Positions 5,469 through 56,359 of a stretch of DNA of 64,000 nt are shown here, piece by piece. The stretch's first letter is position 1. Every line of letters begins with the position of its first letter. The DNA is from Escherichia phage SUT_E1620. Location of the stretch: the sequence record OQ939939; one strand, written 5' to 3'. The notes below the pieces were generated by a model, which saw only the letters and a program-made list of their open reading frames with translations, searched no databases and was not told where the DNA came from. The position numbers were made by a program, and so were the translations under genes.

Positions 5469-7307
5469 TTATTCTAAGTAGGAAAATCCTTCTGCATCTT
5501 TTTTAACAGTAATCTTATGGGCTAATGGATGCGTATGCCCATGAGAAACAATGATAGAATTCAGACTATCTTCCTCATTTAATAATTCAACGAGAGTATC
5601 AAGTCCTTTCGTATCAATAAAGCTAATAACTTCGTCAAGGAACAGAAGATTAATATTAACTTTACTAATAGATGTTAACAGCATTCGAATAGCTAACAGA
5701 GTTGCTAGGTTAATTCTACTCTGCTGACCAGTAGAGCAGTTCTCCATACTGGTACGGTTTCCATCATTGAAGATTACTACTTGTAATTTAGTTTCATCAA
5801 GCTCAAATCCAAGTGCGAACTTACCACCAGTCATAATAGAAAGATATTTATTAATCAATTCCTCAAATACTTTCACACTATGTTCTAGTTTATATCCTAC
5901 CAGATTTTTCAATGCAGCAATCAGAATATCAAGATCAGCAACAGCTTCTGATACTCCATCCAGTTTGGACGTTATCTCAGACATTTCTGCCTCAGCTTTT
6001 TCAATCTGTTCTAGTTTCGCTTTATACTTTGCATTGGCTAACTCGACATTTGCATTATGCTCTTTGGCAATTGCAACTTTAGAACGTCCATCAGCGATTT
6101 CCTGTTCTAATTGTCGGATTTGCACCTGTAGGATTTGCACATTGAGTTCTTCAAAAGAAGCGTCACTCATTGAATTTTTGAACTCGTCTCTAGCTGCTAC
6201 TGCCTTATCCAAAGCATCCTTAGCTCTAGTATACGCAGTGTACTCGACTTGTTCTTTCTTCAACTGCTCCAATGTAGCTTCAAGAGATTGTTTCTCTTTG
6301 AACAGAGGATCGTATTCTGTTCTAGCCATATCCATTGCTTTTTGAGCAGCAGTTGTATCAAGATGCGTACCACAAGTAGGACATTCAGTATTTGAAGCCT
6401 CTTGCTTAAACTTCTGATAACGTTTCTTGACTTCTCCCGCACGTGAGGTAACAATCGTTAAGTCACGCGTAACACTTGAGATCTCTTCAGATTGGTCAGT
6501 GGGCGCAGGGAAATTTTTGAAAGGCTCGAAAGATTGTTCGGCAACTTGTACAGCTTTGTCCAAATTACGGAGTTTAGTAATATTAGCCTCTTGTGACTTG
6601 GCTAATGCCGCCTTAATTTTCGATTCAGTAAGTTCTTGTGCTAACGGTTCTTCATCAAATTCTGGAACTTCAACTGGCTCCTGTAAACTTCCGAGATTAC
6701 CTTTTCCATTGAGGATCTTCGTAATTACGGCCATCTGGCCTTGCAAGTTACTTAACGTACTTGCCACTTCTTTACGATCAGCCTTAATAGTTTCTGACAT
6801 CTCTTTATACTGTTCCTGATTGAACAGATTAACAAGAAAAGCTTTACGTGTTGCATCAGTTGCTTTGAGGAAGTCTAGATTGGAACCAACAGATTGATAG
6901 ATTAGTTTAGTGAATGTTTGGAAGTCACCACCCATAATCTCTTCAATCATCTTGTACGTTTGAGTTGCTGTGTGTCCACTGATATCTTCTCCATTCTTAA
7001 TCAGTGTAACCTTAGCAGTTGATTTAACTACTTTATGCAATTCATACTCATCTTCATCTTTCGAGAAGTAAGCATGCATATCATACTCTTTCTTCGGAGA
7101 ACCCCAAGAGAATAGGGCGTCCTTCTTGATACCACGTGAGTTCTTGTTATAAAACAATTCCTCAATAACAGTAGCAATAGTGGACTTCCCTAGACCGTTT
7201 CCTCCGATTAACTGAGTAACTGGATTCTTATCGAAATGAATTACGATATCCTTACCGTAAGACATAACGTTGCTGAATTTTAGTGTCTTAATTATAATCT
7301 TTGACAT
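5469..7307 (-). CDS. SbcC/Rad50-like ATPase (recombination nuclease subunit)
   Basis: Walker A GGNGLGKST near N-terminus, long central coiled coil, C-terminal signature/D-loop region (LLFLDEVISFID). Start placed at internal Met (MSKIIIKTLKF) to avoid overlap with SbcD-like gene. Confidence 0.8.
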   Translation of the reverse strand: MSKIIIKTLKFSNVMSYGKDIVIHFDKNPVTQLIGGNGLGKSTIATVIEELFYNKNSRGIKKDALFSWGSPKKEYDMHAYFSKDEDEYELHKVVKSTAKVTLIKNGEDISGHTATQTYKMIEEIMGGDFQTFTKLIYQSVGSNLDFLKATDATRKAFLVNLFNQEQYKEMSETIKADRKEVASTLSNLQGQMAVITKILNGKGNLGSLQEPVEVPEFDEEPLAQELTESKIKAALAKSQEANITKLRNLDKAVQVAEQSFEPFKNFPAPTDQSEEISSVTRDLTIVTSRAGEVKKRYQKFKQEASNTECPTCGTHLDTTAAQKAMDMARTEYDPLFKEKQSLEATLEQLKKEQVEYTAYTRAKDALDKAVAARDEFKNSMSDASFEELNVQILQVQIRQLEQEIADGRSKVAIAKEHNANVELANAKYKAKLEQIEKAEAEMSEITSKLDGVSEAVADLDILIAALKNLVGYKLEHSVKVFEELINKYLSIMTGGKFALGFELDETKLQVVIFNDGNRTSMENCSTGQQSRINLATLLAIRMLLTSISKVNINLLFLDEVISFIDTKGLDTLVELLNEEDSLNSIIVSHGHTHPLAHKITVKKDAEGFSYLE

Positions 7308-9595: not shown

Positions 9596-10926
9596 ATTTT
9601 AGCTAATTGTACTGCTTTCTCCGGAGTCATAGTAATAGTTTTCCATGCATTATTGCGATACACGGCCATACGTCCAGAAGCCTGTCTTAAACCAGTACCT
9701 CCTTTCATAATTAAATCTACAACAATCGGATCTAGCTTTCCGTCAACAATACGTTGAACGCGGCCTGCTAACTGTTCTATGAGAGATTCATTATTAATGA
9801 GACTTCCCATTATTAAACAAGACAGCTCGTTAAGAGAAATACCTTCTGAGAAGATACTCTGAGCTGCTGCAAGCACACAGGGTCCGCCCTCCGCTACATC
9901 TTTCTGGATTCTCAATCGGTCATCCAAAGGAGTTGCACCTATAATCTCATAGGTTGTAACACCACGTTGAGCGAGAGCTTCTAGTATTGTTTGAATTAGT
10001 TCTGTTCTATCACTTACAAAGAGAACCTTATGCCCCATAGACACATATAAATGTGCTAAGTTTATAATAGTTTCCCGATATTCAGGATGATTATACACAT
10101 CGTTAGCACGTAATGCCCACGGTACGTTCTGGTTTCCTGATAATTCTACAGGCACGGAGTACCTATGGATTGTGGGTGGAACAGTATTATTAACCGGAGG
10201 ACTAAAGATCTTATATCCAAAGAAGTCTTTGAACATAACTTGTAGCCCATCTTTACGTTTTAATGTACCTGATAGACCGATCTTGTAGCGAGCACATGAG
10301 ATCTCTAGGAAATTAGTGAAAGTTGTAGCTACACAGTGGTGAACTTCATCAACTATAACAGTACCGAATACCTTAGAAAGATTATTCGCATGTTTGTTCA
10401 CTGTTTGTATATTACTGACCACGATTGGTGGATCAATGTTATACTTTCCAGAACCTATAATACCCGGCTCGAATCCAAACCATTTACGAACTTCTGCAGC
10501 CCACATTTCACGAATGGATGTGTTAGTGCAGATTACCAGAGTTTTCTGGCCAAACTTATATGCAAGAGCTAGAGCTAGGATAGTTTTACCAAATCCAGGC
10601 TTACCATTGATAATACAAGTATCATCGCACTCTTCATATATAGGAAGCTGATCTTCCTCACGTAGCTTGAACTGAGGTTCTGGTATTTCTACCGGAGCTA
10701 ACGTGCGTTTGTCAACTAATTCGTATTTTACTCCCTTAGCATCTAGTAAATCTAGACGCGTAATGGGAATCCACTTAATCTCTTTAGCAACAACACCACT
10801 ATTCTTATACATAATAGGGTATTTACTAGTCATTGTCTCGATGTGATAAGTGGTTTGTTTACTACAGTAATCCCAGAGTTCATCATCGGGCTTGAAATAG
10901 GCTTTATTAGATATAACAACCTTCAT
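9574..10926 (-). CDS. DNA helicase, superfamily 2 (T5 D10-like)
   Basis: Walker A GKPGFGKT, DEAH-like DEVHH, helicase C-terminal motifs (QLAGRVQR). Confidence 0.85.
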   Translation of the reverse strand: MKVVISNKAYFKPDDELWDYCSKQTTYHIETMTSKYPIMYKNSGVVAKEIKWIPITRLDLLDAKGVKYELVDKRTLAPVEIPEPQFKLREEDQLPIYEECDDTCIINGKPGFGKTILALALAYKFGQKTLVICTNTSIREMWAAEVRKWFGFEPGIIGSGKYNIDPPIVVSNIQTVNKHANNLSKVFGTVIVDEVHHCVATTFTNFLEISCARYKIGLSGTLKRKDGLQVMFKDFFGYKIFSPPVNNTVPPTIHRYSVPVELSGNQNVPWALRANDVYNHPEYRETIINLAHLYVSMGHKVLFVSDRTELIQTILEALAQRGVTTYEIIGATPLDDRLRIQKDVAEGGPCVLAAAQSIFSEGISLNELSCLIMGSLINNESLIEQLAGRVQRIVDGKLDPIVVDLIMKGGTGLRQASGRMAVYRNNAWKTITMTPEKAVQLAKIAFGNCS

Positions 10927-45780: not shown

Positions 45781-46621
45781 TAAATTAGAGAACAGCGAGC
45801 CGATTACGCTGAGTGAGTTTAGTGATTCCTACTAGGATAGCTATTCCACTGAATAGAGTCGGTGAGTTGGAGACTAGTAAGTACTCTGAGAGAGGCTACG
45901 AGCTAACGCTTATTGCTATTGATAGGGAACTGAAAATCTGCGGAAAACTCGGGAGCTGTCCCGAAATCTCGTAAACTCTTCTCTAGTTTATGTTAGTGGG
46001 GTGTCGAACTGACTTATGTGATAACACTGCCGTCCTAGTATAAACGGTAATATCAAACCGTAACTGGTGGAAGATGCAGGTTCGAATCCTGCGGTCGGAA
46101 AGAATCAGATAACTCGGGCTTATACCGGATAAGCATTCGCTGCTGGAGTACATACTATGACGGTTCAGGAGGTACGCCGCCTGATCAGTATTAGGTTAGA
46201 ATCGAAACAGCTAAACCACGAGGAAACCTGACGGCCTCAACCAAACTCGGAACTCGGGATCACTGCCTAGTGTGTGCCCCGTTTAACATAGAGACTAGGC
46301 ATCGAAAATCGGAGGTGTGATTCTACCAGACCGCGTGAATATGAGAGTGGGAAATGCTGGCATGAGAGATGTCACTAATGGTGCCCAATAGTACAGGTAA
46401 TTCGCGATAATTCCTGTTGAGTGGCAGCAGTAGGCTGGGAGTCATGACCTAAGCCTAACCGAGTTCTTCACATACGGAGAACATAACCACAAAGTCACCC
46501 TGACTTAAACTGGAGGATATTGTCTGACGGAAGGGCTGCAGAGCTTAATCTGAGGGGGCTGACCCTACCTACCGTCGGGTATCTTTAAGAGCTTTTATAA
46601 GAGTTCTTAAAAATACCTAAA

Positions 46622-49957: not shown

Positions 49958-50000
49958 AAATTTGACTTGCTCAGTCCTTCAAAACTTGATATAATATTTA
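49958..50000 (+). promoter_or_regulatory. Sigma70-type early promoter upstream of tRNA cluster
   Basis: TTGCTC (49967-49972), N17, TATAAT (49990-49995). Confidence 0.65.
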
Positions 50001-50291: not shown

Positions 50292-50359
50292 TTGGGGTAC
50301 GCATAGGTTGCTAGTGGGCCTCCAAAACCCATGAAAAGGTTTCGAATACCTTTACCCCT
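50292..50359 (+). tRNA. tRNA-Trp (anticodon CCA), 5' boundary uncertain
   Basis: Anticodon loop CTCCAAA, T-arm AAGGTTTCGAATACCTT, 3' TACCCCT-G-CCA; short D-arm, position-1 mismatch. Confidence 0.5.
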
Positions 50360-50377
50360 GCCAGATAAGAAAATAGT

Positions 50378-50941
50378 ATGTTTAAGACAATACCTGAATT
50401 TCCTATGTATAAAATTTCTGAAACAGGCAAAGTTTACTCATTGCATGTTAACAGAGAAATAGCTACTTATCTTAACAATAAAGGTTATCCATGTGTTAAG
50501 CTAAGTAAAAATGGTGTTGAGCATACTCTTTTAATATCTAGACTATTATGCAGAGTATTTAAAGATTTAGAAGATCTTTATTCCTCTAAAGAAGTAGACC
50601 ATAAAGATAGAAATCCGGCAAATTTTGAACTAAGCAACCTACAAGTTCTTAGTAAAGAAGAGCACGTAATAAAAACATGTTCTGATAACAATATTAGTAG
50701 AAGAACGGATGTTTGTCCTATTTGTGGTGATACTAAGCATAAATCCTCAAAAGCCTGCTTAAAGTGTACTGCTTCGGCTAGGATTAAGAGTAGAGATATT
50801 ACAAAAGAAGATATAGAGTATTGGGTACGAAACTTCTCCTGGGCTAGAGCTTCAAGAGAACTTGGACTATCTGATAATGGACTCCGAAAGAGATATAAGG
50901 CTCTTGGGGGAGACCCTAAAAATATTTGCACCTTTAGCTGA
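50378..50941 (+). CDS. HNH homing endonuclease with C-terminal DNA-binding module
   Basis: HNH core (EVDHKDRNPANFELSNL), Cys cluster, C-terminal LSDNGLRKRYKALGG shared with ORF 52201..52782. Confidence 0.75.
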   Translation: MFKTIPEFPMYKISETGKVYSLHVNREIATYLNNKGYPCVKLSKNGVEHTLLISRLLCRVFKDLEDLYSSKEVDHKDRNPANFELSNLQVLSKEEHVIKTCSDNNISRRTDVCPICGDTKHKSSKACLKCTASARIKSRDITKEDIEYWVRNFSWARASRELGLSDNGLRKRYKALGGDPKNICTFS

Positions 50942-50999
50942 GATGGATTAGCGCTTGCCTGAAGAGCTTGAGAGGTTGGATCGTTACCAACGGGGTGCA
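50928..50999 (+). tRNA. Candidate tRNA-Phe (anticodon GAA) with non-canonical T-loop and weak anticodon stem
   Basis: 7/7 acceptor pairing GCACCTT/GGGGTGC, D-stem GCTG/TAGC, anticodon loop CTGAAGA, T-stem GTTGG/CCAAC with loop ATCGTTA (54/58 swapped), A73-CCA; anticodon stem has two U-U mismatches. Confidence 0.45.
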
Positions 51000-51019
51000 C
51001 CAATTTGAAGGAGATGCTG

Positions 51020-51292
51020 ATGCATCCTGAAAACTTCTTTATTTACTGTGCGGATAAGTCGCTGAAACGTAGAATTAACAAAGTCTATCATTATCGTGCC
51101 AGTCAACAGCCTTATGTTTACGCTTTTGACGGAGATCACATTCCACTAGATCAATTAGCGTGTGATTACATGGTATTGAAGAACTTTGATGAGACAAAGA
51201 TCTCAAGCGTTCATAATCGACAGAATCCACTAACGTGGAAGTATAAGAAGAAAAAGAAAGGCATCATATTTCTGAAAAATGTAGTTGCTTAA
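51020..51292 (+). CDS. Hypothetical protein (~90 aa)
   Basis: ATG after AAGGAG RBS (track ORF starts at upstream TTG). Confidence 0.5.
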   Translation: MHPENFFIYCADKSLKRRINKVYHYRASQQPYVYAFDGDHIPLDQLACDYMVLKNFDETKISSVHNRQNPLTWKYKKKKKGIIFLKNVVA

Positions 51293-51320
51293 CCGCTTAA
51301 AGTTCTGTATAATTATTACA
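51280..51320 (+). promoter_or_regulatory. Sigma70-type early promoter
   Basis: TTGCTT (51285-51290), N16, TATAAT (51307-51312). Confidence 0.6.
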
Positions 51321-51342: not shown

Positions 51343-51567
51343 ATGACTGAACAAGAACTGAAAGAACGTAAGCTGGTAATGCTTCGTTTACTAAACATTT
51401 TCTCTGGTATGGATGGTGGAATTGACTTCATTAATCTACGTTGCTTTGTAGAAGAAGCAGAAGGCGAATCTATCACTAAAATTCTTAAACATATGGGATT
51501 ACTTTTAGATGCTGCTGGTGTAGCTACTGAATATAAACTAGAAGATTTGCCGGAGCGTGTTAAATGA
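51343..51567 (+). CDS. Hypothetical protein (~74 aa)
   Basis: ATG (MTEQELK) after GGAGAAG RBS; track start 51325 lies at the transcription start. Confidence 0.5.
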   Translation: MTEQELKERKLVMLRLLNIFSGMDGGIDFINLRCFVEEAEGESITKILKHMGLLLDAAGVATEYKLEDLPERVK

Positions 51568-51755
51568 AAAAGTTAGTCAAATTTAAGTGTTGTGGTTCTG
51601 AACATATCTTCACACGTTTGCGTGAATTTAAAATGTGTAAGTGTGGTAAATCAGGCTATGATGCTGGAGACGGTTATTACTCCCGTACTCTAGGAGATTT
51701 CAACGATTTAGAATTCGTTGATCTCGAAAAACAAGATAAATCGACCGTTGGCTGA
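51564..51755 (+). CDS. Small Cys-rich protein (63 aa)
   Basis: CCGSEH...CKCGKSG zinc-ribbon-like; 3' end overlaps tRNA-Cys. Confidence 0.5.
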   Translation: MKKLVKFKCCGSEHIFTRLREFKMCKCGKSGYDAGDGYYSRTLGDFNDLEFVDLEKQDKSTVG

Positions 51756-51814
51756 ATGGCTTAGGCGGAGGCCTGCAAAACCTCCTTATGTGAGTTCGAA
51801 TCTCATGCGGTCGT
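51742..51814 (+). tRNA. tRNA-Cys (anticodon GCA)
   Basis: Acceptor CGACCGT/GCGGTCG, anticodon stem-loop GAGGC-CTGCAAA-ACCTC, T-loop GTGAGTTCGAATCTCAT, T73, CCA. Confidence 0.7.
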
Positions 51815-51825
51815 CCAAATTTTTA

Positions 51826-51905
51826 GGGTCGTTAGCCAAGCGGTTTGGCGGTGGACTGTTAATCCATGTCGAAAGACAACGTAGGTTCGAATCCTACACG
51901 GCCCG
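51826..51905 (+). tRNA. tRNA with GTT (Asn) anticodon and a 13-nt hairpin variable arm
   Basis: Acceptor GGGTCGT/ACGGCCC, D-stem GCCA/TGGC, anticodon stem-loop GTGGA-CTGTTAA-TCCAT, variable arm GTCGAAAGACAAC, T-loop GTAGGTTCGAATCCTAC, G73, CCA. Confidence 0.6.
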
Positions 51906-52011
51906 CCATATTCTGTGTAGAGTTAAGTAAACCGGTAGCCAACCAGTTATCATTGCTGATATCGAATTCAGTCACAGATACCATTTTTCATTAACAACTG
52001 AGGAAATAGAT

Positions 52012-52197
52012 ATGACAACTCGTGCAATTGCTCGACTAGAAGCTGATCGTGATAGTCTGATTAATAATATTAAGGTTCGTGATAATATTATTAAGGCTCT
52101 GAAAGCTGAACTTCTTGAAGAACTTCAAGGTCAAGTAGAGCGTCGTGAAGCTCTAAAAGAGGTTGAGGAAGCTATCGAAAAACTCAAAGCTGAGTAA
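52012..52197 (+). CDS. Small coiled-coil protein (61 aa)
   Basis: ORF with RBS GAGGAAATAG. Confidence 0.5.
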   Translation: MTTRAIARLEADRDSLINNIKVRDNIIKALKAELLEELQGQVERREALKEVEEAIEKLKAE

Positions 52198-52200
52198 ATT

Positions 52201-52782
52201 ATGCACGGAATATCCTTACCCATTCCAGGGTTTGAGGAGTACTTAGTAAGTTTGGATGGGTTAGTATTTAGTATCAAATCAAACAAAATACTAACCCCAA
52301 TAACCAGTAATTACGGATACTTATCTATACGTCTCCATAAAAATGGTCAACAGAGAAATACCGGTGTACATAGGATTTTAGCATGTGCATTTAAGAAATT
52401 ACCAAGTCTAGACTCTGAACTAGAAGTTGACCATATTAACACAGACATTACTTATTGGGGTCTTAATAACTTACAAGTGCTCACAAAAGAGCAGCATCTA
52501 GAAAAGACTTTAAAAGATAAAGGATTTAGTAAACTAAACCATGATAATTGTTGTAAGGATTGTGGTAAAGCTATTTCTTTAAAAGCTGAAAAATGTCAGG
52601 AGTGCTCTTCACATAAACCAAAAGATATCTCTATAACTAAAGAAATAATCGAGGTTACAGTAAGAGAGCTAGGCTGGTCAGGTGCAGGGAGAAAGTTAAG
52701 TTATTCAGATAATGGGTTGCGTAAAAGATACACTTCTTTAGGAGGCAATCCTAAAGAACTTAAAAAGTTAAAGGTACTATAG
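52201..52782 (+). CDS. HNH homing endonuclease (paralog of 50378..50941)
   Basis: HNH core (EVDHINTDITYWGLNNL), Cys cluster, C-terminal LSYSDNGLRKRYTSLGG. Confidence 0.75.
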   Translation: MHGISLPIPGFEEYLVSLDGLVFSIKSNKILTPITSNYGYLSIRLHKNGQQRNTGVHRILACAFKKLPSLDSELEVDHINTDITYWGLNNLQVLTKEQHLEKTLKDKGFSKLNHDNCCKDCGKAISLKAEKCQECSSHKPKDISITKEIIEVTVRELGWSGAGRKLSYSDNGLRKRYTSLGGNPKELKKLKVL

Positions 52783-52844
52783 TCTAACGGTTAGGATACT
52801 CCCCTGTCACGGGAGAGGTAGGGTTTCGATTACCCTTAGTACCG
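52773..52844 (+). tRNA. tRNA-Asp (anticodon GTC)
   Basis: Acceptor GGTACTA/TAGTACC, anticodon stem-loop CTCCC-CTGTCAC-GGGAG, T-loop AGGGTTTCGATTACCCT, G73, CCA; first 10 nt overlap HNH gene stop. Confidence 0.75.
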
Positions 52845-52853
52845 CCAAATTAT

Positions 52854-52926
52854 ACATCCATAGCTCAATGGTTAGAGCTACCGCCTCTTAAGCGGAGGGT
52901 TCTAGGTTCAAGTCCTAGTGGGTGTA
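52854..52926 (+). tRNA. tRNA-Lys (anticodon CTT)
   Basis: Acceptor ACATCCA/TGGGTGT, D-stem GCTC/GAGC, anticodon loop CTCTTAA, T-loop CTAGGTTCAAGTCCTAG, A73, CCA. Confidence 0.65.
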
Positions 52927-53141
52927 CCAAACATCAGAGCAGCGTGATGTACTGCAAAGACCCAAAGTCCGGGGGGACTTCTTGATTCAAAGGAGCAGGC
53001 ATTAATTATCATTCTAGCGTGGTGGAGAGGGGACACCAGCTTGCCGAGGGTAGAAGCTCGTTCGATTCGAGTGAAAGAATGGTTCTCGTAAATCCGCACA
53101 AGTGATAGCAGGTTCAAGTCCTGCCTAGATTGACTTATTAT

Positions 53142-53212
53142 GCGTTCGTAGTTAAAAGGTATAATTTTTGGTTGCCAACCAGAAGTTGAGGGTTCGATTC
53201 CCTCCGACCGCA
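53142..53212 (+). tRNA. tRNA-Gly (anticodon GCC)
   Basis: Acceptor GCGTTCG/CGACCGC (one mismatch), anticodon stem-loop TTTGG-TTGCCAA-CCAGA, 4-nt variable loop, T-loop GAGGGTTCGATTCCCTC, A73, CCA. Confidence 0.65.
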
Positions 53213-53459
53213 CCAAATTTAGGTTTCTGCTTCCTAGAGAACGGACTCCTAGATAAACAAGGCGATGAGTTTCCGGCCGGTTCTAGTCGCTGAAAATCCT
53301 CCCGACCAGGTAGGTGTAGGTAAACGAAAGTTTACTTATTGAGTAGGTTCCGATAGATCGGCGGATCTATTCTGGCATTTAAGAGAAGTCTCGCAAACTT
53401 CTTTGTCAGCAGAGCGTTTGAAGCGTGAGGTGGCCTACACAATAAGTAAATTTATTAAA

Positions 53460-53505
53460 AACTCATTTGCTATTTCACTTAATTCTCTGTATAATATATC
53501 TTATA
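53460..53505 (+). promoter_or_regulatory. Sigma70-type early promoter upstream of tRNA-Pro
   Basis: TTGCTA (53466-53471), N18, TATAAT (53490-53495). Confidence 0.7.
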
Positions 53506-53527
53506 AAGTGAGTTAACAAAGAATATT

Positions 53528-53602
53528 CTCCGTGTAGCTCAGTTTGGCCAGAGCGTTCCGTTTGGGGCGGTAGGGTCGGGGGTTCAAATCCTCCCACGGA
53601 GA
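53528..53602 (+). tRNA. tRNA-Pro (anticodon TGG)
   Basis: Acceptor CTCCGTG/CACGGAG, D-stem GCTC/GAGC, anticodon loop TTTGGGG, T-loop GGGGGTTCAAATCCTCC, A73, CCA. Confidence 0.75.
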
Positions 53603-53611
53603 CCAAACAAT

Positions 53612-53686
53612 TGCGGGTTAGATCTCTGGTAGAGATCGCTAGTCTCATAAGCTAGAAAGAGGTAGGTTCGATTCCTACACCCGCTT
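53612..53686 (+). tRNA. tRNA with CAT anticodon (Met, fMet or Ile-lysidine)
   Basis: Anticodon stem-loop CTAGT-CTCATAA-GCTAG, T-loop GTAGGTTCGATTCCTAC, 3' ACCCGCT-T-CCA; 1:72 U-U mismatch. Confidence 0.65.
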
Positions 53687-53710
53687 CCAATTTAATAGAA
53701 GGATTTCGAA

Positions 53711-53874
53711 ATGAAATTATTTCGTTTAAAAGTAAGTGACCTGCGATCTAGCAAAGATCGTAAGAAGTATCCACTAGCCCATTACGGTAAAGATGAAAAC
53801 GAAGTGATGGCGGAATTTGGTATTAATCATCCTTACTTGAAAGTCTACTCTATTAAGGAAGTCTATGCTAATTA
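53711..53874 (+). CDS. Small hypothetical protein (~54 aa)
   Basis: ATG after AAGGA RBS; below track size cut-off; stop overlaps next ORF start. Confidence 0.35.
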
Positions 53875-54338
53875 ATAAAGTTTTAGCTGCCTTAAACCTT
53901 CCTGATAACTTCATTATAGATGATAAGCTCATAAGAGCTTATATGAGCAAATATAACGAAATTTCGGGTAAAGAAGGTAAGTTAAAAACTTCAGAGTTTA
54001 GATTCTGTTATCGAATGGCAGCCTTAAATCTCTTAAAGTATAAAAGGGAGCATAAAATACCTATAACGGAAGGTTTTGTATATGTAATTGGTAATCCAGC
54101 ATGGCCAGGCATGTATAAAATAGGTATGACTATAGATGTGAATGAGAGGTTAGCAAGTTATCAAACTTATTCACCTAATAGAGACTACAAGCTATACCAT
54201 TTCAGATTTTCGTCGGATAAAAGACGTACAGAGAAAGAATTACATAATCTTCTTAAAGATTATAGAGTATCTGGAGAGTGGTTTGAAGTACCTATACTAG
54301 ATGCTTTTAAATTATTAGTAGAAAAATTGGATTGCTAG
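53865..54338 (+). CDS. T5orf172-domain (GIY-YIG-related) protein
   Basis: Core GFVYVIGNPAWPGMYKIGMTIDVNERL; 3' end overlaps tRNA-Lys. Confidence 0.6.
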   Translation: MLINKVLAALNLPDNFIIDDKLIRAYMSKYNEISGKEGKLKTSEFRFCYRMAALNLLKYKREHKIPITEGFVYVIGNPAWPGMYKIGMTIDVNERLASYQTYSPNRDYKLYHFRFSSDKRRTEKELHNLLKDYRVSGEWFEVPILDAFKLLVEKLDC

Positions 54339-54403
54339 CTCAACTGGATAAGAGTAGCGGACCTTTAATCCGTCAGTTCTGGGTTCGAATCCCAGGCAAT
54401 CCA
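54329..54403 (+). tRNA. tRNA-Lys (anticodon TTT)
   Basis: Acceptor GGATTGC/GCAATCC, anticodon stem-loop GCGGA-CCTTTAA-TCCGT, T-loop CTGGGTTCGAATCCCAG, A73, CCA; first 10 nt overlap upstream ORF end. Confidence 0.7.
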
Positions 54404-54410
54404 CCAAACT

Positions 54411-54481
54411 GCTCGGTTAGTTTAATGGGAGAACCCCGTCTTTACACGGCGGTTGCGATAGTTCGATTCTATCACCGAGTA
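54411..54481 (+). tRNA. tRNA-Val (anticodon TAC)
   Basis: Acceptor GCTCGGT/ACCGAGT, D-stem GTTT/GAAC, anticodon stem-loop CCGTC-TTTACAC-GGCGG, T-loop GATAGTTCGATTCTATC, A73, CCA. Confidence 0.7.
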
Positions 54482-54503
54482 CCAATTAACTCAAAATAAG
54501 GAA

Positions 54504-54866
54504 TTGCAAATGCAATTATCAAGCAAGGTTCAAGGCTATTTCGGTCATGTAACAATGGAGTTCGCTATCTCTAAAGGTTGGGATTTCGAGCAAGATCTAG
54601 CTGAGTTCTACAAAGATATTGATCTGAACGTACCATACATGGGACTCTCCACTGGTCAAGTGATCACAGAAGGCGATGTGTTCAAGGCAAGTCAAGGTGA
54701 GGTAACACCTAGTTTTGCCAAGTTCTGGTTAGGACTTACTTTGAAGGAAGATGCACCAGAGGATGGTGTGGTTATACAGAGTATGCACTCTGGAAGCTCT
54801 GATTACTACCTTTTCGTTAGCGACGTTAAGGAACTACAAGAAATCGCTAAAAATGTACTTGCTTGA
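54504..54866 (+). CDS. Hypothetical protein (120 aa)
   Basis: ORF with RBS AAGGAATTG. Confidence 0.55.
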   Translation: MQMQLSSKVQGYFGHVTMEFAISKGWDFEQDLAEFYKDIDLNVPYMGLSTGQVITEGDVFKASQGEVTPSFAKFWLGLTLKEDAPEDGVVIQSMHSGSSDYYLFVSDVKELQEIAKNVLA

Positions 54867-54900
54867 TGCTTAATTTCTTGTTATAATATTTATATAAATT
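54855..54900 (+). promoter_or_regulatory. Sigma70-type early promoter (overlaps 3' end of upstream ORF)
   Basis: TTGCTT (54859-54864), N17, TATAAT (54882-54887), ATAAATTGATGAGGAG box; ~250-nt untranslated leader before tRNA-Ala. Confidence 0.7.
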
Positions 54901-55149
54901 GATGAGGAGAAATCCTCATCAAAGTTCACTAAGGTATTAGCTCGACCTAGGACTGGCTGCCAAAAAGCACAATTGCAATTAGACCCCTAATGGCGGGGGA
55001 TACTTTGCAATAAGTTCTAGATTAGTCCACTAGATTCAGCGGCAACTGAATAGTGTATCGGGTTTGTGAAGAGCGGTTATCCTCTACTGGCTAATGTCTG
55101 AGGGTAATACGCACACCGAGCTAATAGCCTTAGTAAACTTAAAGATTTT

Positions 55150-55220
55150 GGGGATATAGTTTAATGGTAGAACATCTGCTTTGCACGCAGAAGACGAGGG
55201 TTCAACTCCCTCTTTCTCCA
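55150..55220 (+). tRNA. tRNA-Ala (anticodon TGC)
   Basis: Acceptor GGGGATA/TTTCTCC with G3-U70 pair, anticodon stem-loop TCTGC-TTTGCAC-GCAGA, T-loop GAGGGTTCAACTCCCTC, A73, CCA. Confidence 0.7.
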
Positions 55221-55228
55221 CCAAATTC

Positions 55229-55301
55229 GGGGTCATAGGTTATTTGGTTAAACTTACTGCCTTGCAAGCAGTGGAACTCAGTTCAATTCTGAGTGGCTCC
55301 A
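55229..55301 (+). tRNA. tRNA with TGC anticodon (second Ala-type; isotype tentative)
   Basis: Acceptor GGGGTCA/TGGCTCC (G3-U70 present), anticodon stem-loop ACTGC-CTTGCAA-GCAGT, T-loop CTCAGTTCAATTCTGAG, A73, CCA. Confidence 0.55.
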
Positions 55302-55323
55302 CCAAACAAATTAAGGAAATAAT

Positions 55324-55542
55324 ATGGTATTCTTAGCAACCTCTGTAGTTCTTGCAGCTTTAGCACTAGCTATCTATTTTAGAACTGCTAAAGATTTAGC
55401 TAAAGAAAAGAAAACTTTCTTTACTGATTATTCTTGGGGCGCTCCATATACTGTCCGCTTTATCAGCTTAGAAGCTATGCTGATAATGGTATTCAGTGGC
55501 GTAGGTTCCATTGTTGCGGGATTATTATTTATTTCTAACTAA
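55324..55542 (+). CDS. Small membrane protein (72 aa)
   Basis: Two hydrophobic helices; RBS AAGGAAATAA. Confidence 0.55.
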   Translation: MVFLATSVVLAALALAIYFRTAKDLAKEKKTFFTDYSWGAPYTVRFISLEAMLIMVFSGVGSIVAGLLFISN

Positions 55543-55549
55543 ATAAAAT

Positions 55550-55627
55550 GGGGATGTGGCGAAATTGGCAGACGCGCTAGATTTAGGTTCTAGTCTTCGG
55601 GTGTGGGTTCGAGTCCCTCCATCCCTA
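55550..55627 (+). tRNA. tRNA-Leu (anticodon TAG)
   Basis: Acceptor GGGGATG/CATCCCT, anticodon stem-loop CTAGA-TTTAGGT-TCTAG, extended variable region, T-loop GTGGGTTCGAGTCCCTC, A73, CCA. Confidence 0.7.
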
Positions 55628-55646
55628 CCAAACATTGGATTAACTC

Positions 55647-55859
55647 ATGATGAAAACTCCTATAACTGATATCTGGTTAGCTGTTAATACATTAACTAAA
55701 GAGTATGTGTTTATAGAGTATGGTCAGAGGTATGACCAAAAGATGTATAATCTCATACTTCCAGTATCCGCTAATGAAGTTTATGATTTAATCCTGAGAT
55801 CTACGGAAGAGCAAATCGACTTGGTGACGAAAACCGCTTGGAAAGTGGCTGACTTGTGA
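55647..55859 (+). CDS. Hypothetical protein (70 aa); 3' third overlaps tRNA-Ser
   Basis: Six-frame ORF; last ~55 nt coincide with tRNA-Ser(GGA), so coding status uncertain. Confidence 0.4.
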   Translation: MMKTPITDIWLAVNTLTKEYVFIEYGQRYDQKMYNLILPVSANEVYDLILRSTEEQIDLVTKTAWKVADL

Positions 55860-55894
55860 AAGCAGGCTTGAGAGTTCGAATCTCTCTTCTTCCG
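55805..55894 (+). tRNA. tRNA-Ser (anticodon GGA), long variable arm
   Basis: Acceptor GGAAGAG/TTCTTCC, anticodon loop TTGGAAA, ~20-nt variable arm, T-loop GAGAGTTCGAATCTCTC, G73, CCA. Confidence 0.65.
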
Positions 55895-55904
55895 CCAAAC
55901 AACT

Positions 55905-55991: not shown

Positions 55992-56359
55992 CCAAATCTT
56001 GAAGTATGCCGGAATCGGTAGACGGGGCTTCCTAAAGGGCGTAAGGGGAACATCCACTCCTCATAAGATACCCGAAAACGAGGCTGAGATAAATGGTCTA
56101 TCTCGTGAAGGTTCAAGTCCTTCTGCTTCTTGATATTCAATGGCTCAAAGAGTAACGGTGCTATTTGATGCTCTTAGTAAGACTTTCCCGACATGCGTTC
56201 GGGAGTAAGCTGCTAAGGCTAGAGTAGAAGAGTTTCGGAGAGCCGCCACAATTGAAAATTCGTACTCGTCTTGAGCTGCGTGCAATAGGAGATAACTTGA
56301 TTAGTATTCTAGAAAATGCTATTTGAGGATGGTTTCGCTAATCCTGCGAGTTTTCAATT

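What the first reader, a model, noticed from the sequence alone, without database searches (positions are those of the whole stretch)
51742..55894. tRNA genes overlapping the 3' ends of protein-coding ORFs
Four tRNAs begin inside upstream ORFs: tRNA-Cys starts 14 nt before the stop of ORF 51564..51755, tRNA-Asp and tRNA-Lys(UUU) each overlap the last 10 nt of their upstream ORFs (52201..52782 and 53865..54338), and tRNA-Ser(GGA) overlaps the last ~55 nt of ORF 55647..55859. tRNA excision from the transcript would remove the stop codon and 3' end of the mRNA, coupling tRNA maturation to inactivation of those messages.
Basis: partly seen in the sequence, partly recalled or inferred. Interest (0 to 1): 0.4.

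Follow-up and report, generated by a model that had tools for sequence, protein, structure and literature searches.

The report
Homing-endonuclease genes running into phage tRNAs
In the tRNA gene cluster of this T5-like phage, several genuine protein genes (three of them mobile homing-endonuclease genes) end a few bases inside the next tRNA gene; the arrangement is real, but it is already annotated in phage T5 and many relatives, and its proposed role in limiting expression is already in the literature.

Summary
The window is a T5-like phage (Epseptimavirus, about 96% identical to phages Shin27 and IrmaTschudi). All four reported overlaps are at the stated coordinates. A fifth lies just outside them: an HNH gene, 50378-50941, runs 14 nt into tRNA-Phe. 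The ORFs are real genes: family matches, and dN/dS of 0.02-0.23 for the four ORFs with diverged homologues. Three are free-standing homing-endonuclease genes, two NUMOD4-HNH and one T5orf172/GIY-YIG-like. The 'tRNA-Ser(GGA)' is a non-canonical, sub-threshold orthologue of T5 tRNA-Ser2. Its 55-nt overlap is a rare read-through allele; relatives overlap by 16-22 nt.

Empty-site relatives show the endonuclease cassettes sit in spacers of 1-11 nt directly in front of a tRNA. Translation then stops at the first in-frame stop inside the tRNA, which is U8-A9-G10 = UAG for tRNA-Asp and tRNA-Lys. In 12 genomes, 10 of 10 endonuclease-to-tRNA junction types overlap, against 10 of 30 other ORF junction types.

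ORF and tRNA share transcription units, so RNase P cleavage must cut off the stop codon. That consequence is inferred, not shown. It was already proposed for T4 segB and the T5 F-Tfl endonucleases (PMC2330249). The same overlaps are annotated in T5 and occur in 57-168 public records. Verdict: real, ordinary, already known.

The parts
49967..49995 (+). T5-type early promoter (TTGCT-N17-TATAAT). It heads the unit tRNA-Tyr, tRNA-Glu, tRNA-Trp-like, HNH gene, tRNA-Phe.
   Evidence: 23 matches in the window against 0.32 expected; the window's promoters fall between the same features as T5 promoters P14a, P14b, P13a and P13b
50293..50363 (+). Non-canonical tRNA-Trp(CCA)-like gene, orthologue of T5 tRNAW. 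Its CCA end lies 14 nt before the HNH start codon.
   Evidence: not called by ARAGORN or Rfam
50378..50941 (+). Free-standing NUMOD4-HNH homing-endonuclease gene (187 aa), inserted in the 6-nt tRNA-Trp/tRNA-Phe spacer. Its last 4 codons and its TGA stop are tRNA-Phe sequence.
   Evidence: Pfam HNH_3 29.3 bits and NUMOD4 24.9 bits; phrog_59; 51% identical to T5 hegD; empty site in IrmaTschudi; dN/dS 0.07
50928..51002 (+). tRNA-Phe(GAA) with a variant T-arm, overlapped 14 nt by the HNH gene
   Evidence: Rfam tRNA 33.4 bits; ARAGORN only at -ps95; cloverleaf fold
51285..51313 (+). T5-type promoter heading the unit that contains ORF 51564, tRNA-Cys, tRNA-Asn, the DUF7337 gene, the HNH gene, tRNA-Asp and tRNA-Lys(CUU)
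   Evidence: position as T5 P14b
51564..51755 (+). Small conserved gene (63 aa, phrog_7042 / DUF7695, CxxC pairs). The last 4 codons (S-T-V-G) and the TGA stop lie in tRNA-Cys.
   Evidence: dN/dS 0.13 against IrmaTschudi; the AKFV33 homologue (62 aa) stops 2 nt before a different tRNA-Cys allele
51742..51817 (+). tRNA-Cys(GCA), allele with C1-G72
52012..52197 (+). DUF7337 gene (61 aa). Its TAA stop is 3 nt before the HNH start codon.
   Evidence: 103 bits
52201..52782 (+). Free-standing NUMOD4-HNH homing-endonuclease gene (193 aa) inserted in the spacer between the DUF7337 gene and tRNA-Asp. Its stop TAG is tRNA-Asp U8-A9-G10.
   Evidence: empty site with the same tRNA allele in phage PS3-1; the junction occurs in 57 records, nearly all at 99% identity or more
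52773..52847 (+). tRNA-Asp(GUC), the allele found with the HNH gene in every HNH-carrying genome sampled and, without the gene, in PS3-1
53467..53495 (+). T5-type promoter heading tRNA-Pro, tRNA-Met, ORF 53711, the T5orf172 gene, tRNA-Lys(UUU) and tRNA-Val
   Evidence: position as T5 P13a
53711..53875 (+). Conserved small gene (54 aa, phrog_6221). Its last codons are rewritten by the endonuclease cassette, and its 3' end overlaps the endonuclease start by 11 nt.
53865..54338 (+). T5orf172/MUG113 (GIY-YIG-like) endonuclease-like mobile gene (157 aa). The start ATG straddles the left insertion junction. The stop TAG is tRNA-Lys U8-A9-G10.
   Evidence: Pfam T5orf172 55 bits, MUG113 67 bits; 47% identical to T5.069; empty sites in Elw, T5, S124 and AKFV33; dN/dS 0.02; junction in 86 records
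54329..54406 (+). tRNA-Lys(UUU). The allele next to the endonuclease gene differs from the Elw empty-site allele only by two compensated acceptor-stem pairs.
54859..54887 (+). T5-type promoter heading the RNA2H homologue, two tRNA-Ala, ORF 55324, tRNA-Leu, ORF 55647 and the two tRNA-Ser genes
   Evidence: position as T5 P13b
55647..55859 (+). phrog_11405 gene, here 70 aa because the usual TAG in the tRNA D-loop is TTG. It runs 55 nt into the tRNA-Ser(GGA)-like gene.
55805..55897 (+). Non-canonical tRNA-Ser(GGA)-like gene (C8, weak D-stem), orthologue of T5 tRNA-Ser2(GGA)

Best explanation
This is the tRNA gene cluster of a T5-like phage. tRNA genes, small ORFs and free-standing homing-endonuclease genes are packed head to tail on one strand and transcribed together from a few early promoters.

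Spacers in front of tRNAs are only 0-12 nt. Endonuclease cassettes, and replacement tRNA alleles, have been inserted exactly at tRNA 5' boundaries. An inserted ORF has no in-frame stop before the tRNA. Translation therefore continues into the tRNA and ends at the first in-frame stop in the conserved 5' part: U8-A9-G10 = UAG for tRNA-Asp and tRNA-Lys, positions 12-14 = UGA for tRNA-Cys and tRNA-Phe. The overlap is thus primarily a junction scar of mobile-cassette insertion in an ultra-compact array. This step is shown.

Its likely functional consequence is inferred. RNase P cutting at tRNA +1 separates the message from its stop codon. Only transcripts translated before processing would yield normally terminated protein; later ribosomes would meet a non-stop end. 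That would keep expression of potentially toxic endonucleases low.
For: Identity of the region.

Coding status: Pfam and PHROG hits for all five ORFs; dN/dS 0.02-0.23 for the four with diverged homologues.

Insertion sites. PS3-1 has the DUF7337 stop, an 11-nt spacer and then the same tRNA-Asp allele. Elw has the upstream ORF stop, 1 nt and then tRNA-Lys. IrmaTschudi has tRNA-Trp CCA, ATATTT and then tRNA-Phe. In the window each of these spacers holds an endonuclease gene.

Borrowed stops. The HNH paralogues share a C-terminal motif (LSDNGLRKRY..L.G..PK). After it they carry different 2-6-residue tails, each encoded by whichever tRNA follows.

Survey of 12 genomes: 10 of 10 endonuclease-to-tRNA junction types overlap by 1-24 nt, against 10 of 30 other ORF-to-tRNA types; Fisher p = 4e-4. 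Conserved core ORFs stop 0-15 nt upstream, mostly with TAA.

Shared transcription: T5-type promoters lie only at 49967, 51285, 53467 and 54859 in this stretch, and no promoter-like or terminator-like site lies between an ORF and the tRNA it runs into.

Processing: all five tRNAs fold as cloverleaves with unpaired leaders when 80 nt of upstream mRNA is included.

Literature: the same down-regulation by tRNA processing was proposed for T4 segB and T5 F-TflI/II (PMC2330249). T5 RefSeq annotates the hegC/tRNA-Ser2, hegD/tRNA-Gln2 and T5.069/tRNA-Asn overlaps.
Against: There are no RNA-end, ribosome or protein data, so cleavage before translation, non-stop rescue and reduced expression are all inferred.

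Two of the five overlapping ORFs in the window are not endonucleases (phrog_7042, phrog_11405), so cassette insertion by homing is not the whole story. For tRNA-Cys the evidence points to tRNA-allele replacement instead.

Ten of 30 non-endonuclease junction types also overlap, although several of those are mechanical ORFs of unverified coding status.

Endonuclease activity and target sites of these proteins were not tested. The T5orf172 family has no demonstrated nuclease activity that I could cite.
Confidence: 0.72

Rival explanations
1. The overlap is a selected regulatory device. The stop codon is placed inside the tRNA so that tRNA maturation inactivates the message, giving 'one-shot' or SsrA-tagged endonuclease production.
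For: Every endonuclease junction type overlaps. The leaders are unpaired and the tRNAs fold well, so RNase P cleavage should be efficient. The idea was proposed for segB and the F-Tfl enzymes. The overlap is kept across diverged paralogues placed in front of ten different tRNAs.
Against: The same pattern is expected with no selection if cassettes simply land in 0-12-nt spacers and read to the first stop. In T4 the segB stop is 5 nt upstream of tRNA-Arg, so overlap is not required for the proposed control. Non-toxic small ORFs show the same overlap. There are no expression data.
Confidence: 0.3
2. The overlap is functionally neutral. Translation is coupled to transcription, so the leading ribosome reaches the stop at tRNA positions 8-14 before the roughly 75-nt tRNA is complete and folded. 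Processing would then have no meaningful effect on protein yield.
For: The stops lie only 6-24 nt into the tRNA in most cases. The overlap is fully explained by the insertion anatomy.
Against: Only the first ribosome(s) would benefit; reinitiating ribosomes would still meet a cut message. In the window allele of ORF 55647 the stop is 55 nt into the tRNA. Not testable here.
Confidence: 0.25
3. The endonucleases recognise the spacer/tRNA 5' junction of endonuclease-free genomes as their homing site. Insertion exactly at that junction destroys the site, so the overlap reflects target-site choice and self-immunity.
For: The insertion boundaries coincide with tRNA +1. The tRNA-Lys allele next to the endonuclease gene differs from the Elw empty-site allele only by two compensated acceptor-stem pairs. 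In the genomes sampled, the HNH gene is found only next to one of the two tRNA-Asp alleles. T4 SegB recognises a tRNA-gene motif.
Against: No cleavage data exist. The same tRNA-Asp allele occurs without the gene in PS3-1. The variant tRNA-Phe T-arm is not strictly linked to the gene: IrmaTschudi and most of about 43 records carry it without the gene.
Confidence: 0.3
4. Artefact: the ORFs are non-coding or decaying, or the tRNA 5' ends are miscalled.
For: tRNA-Ser(GGA) and tRNA-Phe fall below default ARAGORN thresholds. HNH_3 scores below the Pfam cut-off for the tRNA-Asp endonuclease.
Against: Family hits for all five ORFs. dN/dS 0.02-0.23 for the four with diverged homologues. ARAGORN and Rfam give the same 5' ends. 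The acceptor stems pair and CCA is encoded. Independent annotators recorded the same overlaps in Shin27, IrmaTschudi, TrudiRoth, S124 and T5.
Confidence: 0.02

Closest known systems
Phage T5 tRNA-cluster HNH endonuclease genes hegC and hegD (F-Tfl family; Akulenko et al. 2004, cited in PMC2330249, PMC10644984 and PMC3326045)
   Same: Same protein family: the window's HNH proteins are 38-51% identical to hegC and hegD. Same genomic region. Same overlap with the next tRNA: hegC/tRNA-Ser2(GGA) 14 nt and hegD/tRNA-Gln2 23 nt in T5 RefSeq. One relative's copy of the tRNA-Phe endonuclease is annotated 'hegD: H-N-H endonuclease F-TflII'.
   Different: In this phage the paralogues sit in front of other tRNAs (Phe, Asp). 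Activity and cleavage sites are untested here. I could not read the 2004 paper.
T5.069 and S124 orf86, T5orf172-domain genes in front of tRNA-Asn and tRNA-Glu
   Same: 43-47% identical to window 53865-54338. Present or absent between close relatives. They overlap the downstream tRNA by 24 and 15 nt.
   Different: Different target tRNA (Lys-UUU). No biochemical evidence that this family acts as a homing endonuclease.
Phage T4 segB (GIY-YIG homing endonuclease gene in the T4 tRNA cluster)
   Same: A free-standing endonuclease gene between tRNA genes, co-transcribed with them. Processing during tRNA-Arg maturation was proposed to remove its stop codon and lower its expression.
   Different: In T4 the TAA stop lies 5 nt upstream of tRNA-Arg, so there is no overlap with the mature tRNA. 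Different protein family from the HNH genes here.
Mitochondrial 'tRNA punctuation' of polycistronic transcripts (my own knowledge; reviewed in PMC3790967, listed)
   Same: mRNA ends are created by excision of flanking tRNAs, and coding sequences can abut or overlap tRNA genes.
   Different: In mitochondria, incomplete stop codons are completed by polyadenylation. Here the full stop codon lies inside the tRNA, and cutting would leave a non-stop bacterial message.
E. coli mixed mRNA-tRNA operons processed by RNase P (secG-leuU, metT; PMC2241853, listed)
   Same: RNase P separates tRNAs from co-transcribed mRNA.
   Different: To my knowledge the coding sequences there do not extend into the tRNA.

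Membership tests
Free-standing HNH homing-endonuclease genes of the T5 tRNA cluster (F-Tfl type) | HNH catalytic domain with a NUMOD4 DNA-binding module | tested here: met
   ORF 50378: HNH_3 29.3 bits (cut-off 24.8), NUMOD4 24.9 (cut-off 23.4). ORF 52201: NUMOD4 24.2 above cut-off, HNH_3 18.5 below cut-off, but phrog_59/959 'HNH endonuclease' at E = 6e-22 and 3e-18, and the EVDH...N...H motif aligns.
Free-standing HNH homing-endonuclease genes of the T5 tRNA cluster (F-Tfl type) | Homology to T5 hegA, hegC and hegD | tested here: met
   BLASTP: 51% and 43% identity to hegD, 38% to hegC, E = 1e-29 to 3e-61.
Free-standing HNH homing-endonuclease genes of the T5 tRNA cluster (F-Tfl type) | Sporadic presence between close relatives, with a precise insertion between conserved flanks | tested here: met
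   Empty sites in PS3-1 (Asp) and IrmaTschudi (Trp/Phe spacer). The junction is found in 57 records for the tRNA-Asp gene and 4 for the tRNA-Phe gene, among several hundred records of T5-like phages.
Free-standing HNH homing-endonuclease genes of the T5 tRNA cluster (F-Tfl type) | Site-specific cleavage of the gene-free allele and preferential inheritance in mixed infection | not testable with these tools
   Needs enzyme assays and phage crosses.
T5orf172 / MUG113 (GIY-YIG-like) mobile genes | T5orf172 domain above the Pfam threshold | tested here: met
   T5orf172 55.3 bits (cut-off 20); MUG113 67 bits (cut-off 22.3).
T5orf172 / MUG113 (GIY-YIG-like) mobile genes | Presence/absence polymorphism at a fixed site | tested here: met
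   Present in the window, Shin27, IrmaTschudi, TrudiRoth and 86 records including Bf23 and Yersinia phiR2-01. Absent at the same site in T5, Elw, S124, AKFV33 and UTK0009.
T5orf172 / MUG113 (GIY-YIG-like) mobile genes | Endonuclease activity | not testable with these tools
Processing-limited endonuclease expression (the segB / F-Tfl model) | ORF and downstream tRNA are on one primary transcript | tested here: met
   The stop codon lies inside the tRNA, so any translatable message must include the tRNA 5' end. T5-type promoters lie only at 49967, 51285, 53467 and 54859, and no terminator-like site lies between an ORF and the tRNA it runs into. This is sequence-level evidence only.
Processing-limited endonuclease expression (the segB / F-Tfl model) | The processing cut falls at or before the stop codon | tested here: met
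   By coordinates, RNase P cleavage at tRNA +1 lies 7-52 nt upstream of the first base of each stop codon. The predicted folds favour the tRNA structure with a free leader. Cleavage itself was not observed.
Processing-limited endonuclease expression (the segB / F-Tfl model) | Reduced protein output or non-stop rescue in vivo | not testable with these tools
   Needs RNA-end mapping, SsrA-tag capture and reporter fusions.
Canonical tRNA (for the 55805-55897 'tRNA-Ser(GGA)') | Detected by standard tRNA finders at default thresholds | tested here: not met
   ARAGORN default gives none, only -ps90. In Rfam only tRNA-Sec at 25.4 bits against a gathering score of 47. The orthologues in T5, TrudiRoth, IrmaTschudi and S124 are called.
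Canonical tRNA (for the 55805-55897 'tRNA-Ser(GGA)') | Cloverleaf kept despite sequence change between relatives | tested here: met
   The T5-type and Epseptimavirus-type copies differ on both strands of the acceptor, anticodon, T and variable stems, yet both give a cloverleaf as the minimum-energy fold. Pairs were read from the alignment and were not counted formally.
Canonical tRNA (for the 55805-55897 'tRNA-Ser(GGA)') | Conserved U8 and G10 and a regular D-stem | tested here: not met
   C8 and A10, with a 3-bp D-stem; the window copy has an extra D-loop base. The T5 annotation notes that its anticodon-swapped version is not an amber suppressor.

The most novel reading that the evidence does not exclude
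The endonuclease genes may do more than ride next to tRNA genes. By homing to tRNA 5' junctions and dragging the adjacent tRNA allele along, they may drive rapid turnover and diversification of the phage's tRNA set, including tRNA-Lys(UUU) and others relevant to tRNA-targeting host defences. The stop-in-tRNA overlap would then be a selected 'one-shot translation' switch, in which RNase P limits each transcript to a burst of endonuclease before it becomes a non-stop message.
Probability: 0.2. Interest if true: 0.55.

Novelty: already known. Interest (0 to 1): 0.2.

Why it matters
It matters little as a discovery. The same junctions are present, and in many records annotated as overlapping features, in 57-168 public phage records and in T5 itself. 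The processing-coupled control idea dates from 2004-2008.

The value here is a cleaner anatomical rule for annotators. In T5-like tRNA clusters an ORF that ends 5-25 nt inside a tRNA is usually real, and is often a mobile endonuclease cassette. Sub-threshold tRNAs (Phe, Trp, Ser-GGA) and 'hypothetical' ORFs there should not be trimmed to avoid overlap.

If the RNase P / non-stop consequence were shown experimentally, it would be a simple natural example of tRNA maturation limiting expression of a selfish gene in bacteria. It would also bear on how phage tRNA repertoires evolve under tRNA-targeting defences.

Tried and rejected
1. Generic sigma-70 scan: 15 promoter-like sites against 17 expected, so uninformative. 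Replaced by the T5 consensus TTGCT-N16-19-TATAAT, which gives 23 against 0.32 expected.

2. Idea that upstream mRNA pairs with the tRNA acceptor strand and gates RNase P: rejected. At most one leader-tRNA pair is predicted, and all cloverleaf pairs are kept.

3. Idea that the odd T-arm of the window's tRNA-Phe is an immunity allele linked to the adjacent HNH gene: not supported. IrmaTschudi, which lacks the gene, has the same allele, and about 43 records match it at 99% or more while only 4 carry the gene.

4. Expectation that T4 segB overlaps tRNA-Arg: false. The stop is 5 nt upstream.

5. Attempt to read Akulenko et al. 2004 (PubMed 15456135): not held.

6. Literature searches for T5 RNA-end mapping, or for explicit work on phage ORF/tRNA overlap with non-stop consequences: nothing beyond PMC2330249.

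7. I did not use the large protein-database searches, structure prediction or metagenome scans. The annotated phage collection already answered the question.

Full report
**What the region is.** The 4.6-kb stretch is 96% identical to the tRNA gene region of Epseptimavirus phages (Demerecviridae, T5-like) such as Shin27 and IrmaTschudi/Bas28. Megablast finds matches in 554 phage records. ARAGORN finds 27 tRNA genes at 46.6-58.0 kb, all on the + strand, and Rfam agrees on their 5' ends.

**Checking the observation.**
- The ORF list and the sequence confirm three overlaps exactly: ORF 51564-51755 with tRNA-Cys (14 nt), ORF 52201-52782 with tRNA-Asp (10 nt), and ORF 53865-54338 with tRNA-Lys(UUU) (10 nt).
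- For Asp and Lys the stop codon TAG is tRNA positions 8-10. For Cys the TGA is positions 12-14.
- The fourth tRNA, Ser(GGA) at 55805-55897, is not called by default ARAGORN and appears only at -ps90. It reaches only 25 bits against the Rfam tRNA-Sec model.
- It is nevertheless the orthologue of the annotated T5 tRNA-Ser2(GGA). It differs from the T5 copy on both strands of all four stems, while both fold as cloverleaves.
- The overlapping ORF, 55647-55859, belongs to phrog_11405, normally 58 aa. In Shin27 it ends at a TAG in the tRNA D-loop and in IrmaTschudi at a TGA a few bases further on. The window has TTG where Shin27 has TAG, and reads on to 70 aa.
- This exact allele occurs in only two other phages. 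Relatives still overlap by 16-22 nt.
HNH ORF 50378-50941 runs 14 nt into tRNA-Phe 50928-51002, which scores 33 bits in Rfam and is called by ARAGORN only at -ps95.

**Are the ORFs genes?** Yes.
- 50378 and 52201 are NUMOD4-HNH endonucleases.
- 53865 is a T5orf172/MUG113 (GIY-YIG-like) protein.
- 51564 is phrog_7042/DUF7695, and 55647 is phrog_11405.
- Pairwise dN/dS against homologues is 0.02-0.23 for four of them. ORF 55647 had no diverged homologue to compare.
- The HNH proteins are 38-51% identical to T5 hegC and hegD. The T5orf172 protein is 47% identical to T5.069.

**How the overlaps arise.** Relatives with empty sites give the insertion boundaries.
- Phage PS3-1 has the same tRNA-Asp allele but no HNH gene. 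There the DUF7337 gene ends in TAA, followed by an 11-nt spacer and then the tRNA. In the window, roughly that spacer is replaced by the HNH cassette, whose frame runs out of the cassette into the tRNA.
- Phage Elw has tRNA-Lys(UUU) 1 nt after the upstream ORF's stop. In the window the T5orf172 cassette replaces the last 13 nt before the tRNA. Its ATG straddles the left junction (TAT|G) and its stop is tRNA U8-A9-G10.
- IrmaTschudi has tRNA-Trp CCA, the spacer ATATTT, and then tRNA-Phe. In the window the second HNH cassette sits in that 6-nt spacer.
- For tRNA-Cys, the AKFV33 homologue of ORF 51564 (62 aa) stops 2 nt before a different tRNA-Cys allele. In the window the alternative allele (C1-G72) starts one base after ...GATAAA-T, and the protein gains a four-residue tail, STVG, encoded by the tRNA.
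- The HNH paralogues share a C-terminal motif and then carry different 2-6-residue tails dictated by the following tRNA: CTFS, VL, KSK, KVSQVG.

**Survey.** I called tRNAs and ORFs uniformly in 12 genomes. All 10 distinct endonuclease-to-tRNA junction types overlap, by 1-24 nt. Of 30 other ORF-to-tRNA junction types, 10 overlap (Fisher p = 4e-4). The widely conserved core ORFs stop 0-15 nt upstream, mostly with TAA. Several of the other overlapping ORFs are themselves small inserts that vary between genomes, for example the 80-aa ORF before tRNA-Ser(UGA) and the 47-aa ORF before tRNA-Val.

**Prevalence.** The HNH/tRNA-Asp junction is in 57 records, nearly all at 99% identity or more. The T5orf172/tRNA-Lys junction is in 86, including Bf23 and Yersinia phiR2-01. 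The ORF/tRNA-Cys junction is in 168. The overlaps are annotated as such in Shin27, IrmaTschudi, TrudiRoth and S124. In T5 RefSeq they appear as hegC/tRNA-Ser2, hegD/tRNA-Gln2 and T5.069/tRNA-Asn.

**Consequence for expression (inferred).**
- T5-type promoters (TTGCT-N16-19-TATAAT; 23 in the window against 0.32 expected) lie on the + strand at 49967, 51285, 53467 and 54859. They fall between the same features as T5 promoters P14a, P14b, P13a and P13b.
- No promoter-like or terminator-like site lies between an overlapping ORF and the tRNA it runs into. Any translatable message must in any case contain the tRNA 5' end.
- All five tRNAs keep their cloverleaf when folded with 80 nt of upstream mRNA, and the leader is unpaired. 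RNase P cleavage at +1 should therefore be unhindered, and it would remove the stop codon.
- Whether this limits protein output, for example through non-stop rescue, or is irrelevant because the first ribosome terminates before the tRNA is complete, cannot be decided here.

**Comparison with what is known.** Brok-Volchanskaya et al. 2008 proposed that T4 segB mRNA is impaired by a processing cut between its last codon and its stop codon during tRNA-Arg maturation. They state that the same lowering of expression had been proposed for the T5 endonucleases F-TflI and F-TflII in the tRNA cluster (PMC2330249). In T4 itself the segB stop is 5 nt upstream of tRNA-Arg, so the T5-like case is the more extreme true overlap. 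Homing-endonuclease genes are recognised as the main source of local differences among T5-like genomes (PMC10644984; PMC3326045).

**Verdict.** The better-supported explanation of why the overlaps exist is cassette insertion and tRNA-allele replacement at tRNA 5' boundaries in an ultra-compact, co-transcribed array. Nothing here is new in kind. Interest is low.

Noticed in passing
window 45974-46621, 51911-51983, 53010-53134, 53343-53441, 54935-55069, 55998-56141, 56142-56248, 56253-56358: The non-coding stretches between tRNAs are homologues (79-97% identity) of the T5 'stable RNAs with unknown functions': RNAX, RNA3, RNA2, RNAIV, RNA2H, RNA1, RNAI and RNAIII. Some are described as tRNA-like in the T5 record. 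No Rfam family matches them.
   Followed up: partly
window 50928-51002: tRNA-Phe has a T-loop ATCGTTA (positions 54 and 58 swapped relative to TTCGATA in Shin27) with a compensated T-stem. This puts it below ARAGORN's default threshold. The allele is shared with UTK0009 and IrmaTschudi and matches about 43 records at 99% or more, so it is not strictly tied to the adjacent HNH gene.
   Followed up: partly
window 50293-50363: A 71-nt tRNA-Trp(CCA)-like gene, orthologue of T5 tRNAW, is missed by both ARAGORN and Rfam. Its CCA end is 14 nt before the HNH start codon, so that message would be bounded by tRNAs on both sides.
   Followed up: partly
window 51742-51817; L006 6205-6279: tRNA-Cys has an unusual C1-G72 first pair. 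A second, canonical G1 allele (GCATCC...) occupies the same site in AKFV33, S124 and UTK0009.
   Followed up: partly
window 52773-52847; L003 (reverse strand) 10347-10423: The two tRNA-Asp alleles in T5-like phages share an identical anticodon arm (TACTCCCCTGTCACGGGAGAG) but have unrelated acceptor, D and T arms, as if the rest of the tRNA had been swapped.
   Followed up: no
window 46029-46100: A weak tRNA-like element (Rfam tRNA 29.3 bits; ARAGORN -ps95 calls it 'Ser(act)') lies inside the RNAX homologue. S124 annotates a tRNA-Ser-ACT in the corresponding part of its tRNA region.
   Followed up: no
L011 (EASG3) about 885-925: Where the phrog_7042 gene is absent, a 10-codon mini-ORF (MTEQDKSTVG) remains that still ends inside tRNA-Cys. 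The 13 nt in front of this tRNA are conserved across genomes.
   Followed up: no
L001 (Shin27) 5920-6162; L007 12827-13069; L005 8906-9049; L013 11785-11928: Small inserted ORFs that vary between genomes and are absent from the window (80 aa before tRNA-Ser(UGA), 47 aa before tRNA-Val) also end 16 and 10 nt inside the downstream tRNA. The rule may therefore apply to inserted cassettes in general, not only endonuclease genes.
   Followed up: partly
window, whole: There are 23 exact matches to the T5 early-promoter consensus TTGCT-N16-19-TATAAT (0.32 expected). Apart from one + strand match at 7270, those up to about 30 kb are on the - strand and all from about 32 kb onward are on the + strand, marking a divergent transcription switch.
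   Followed up: no
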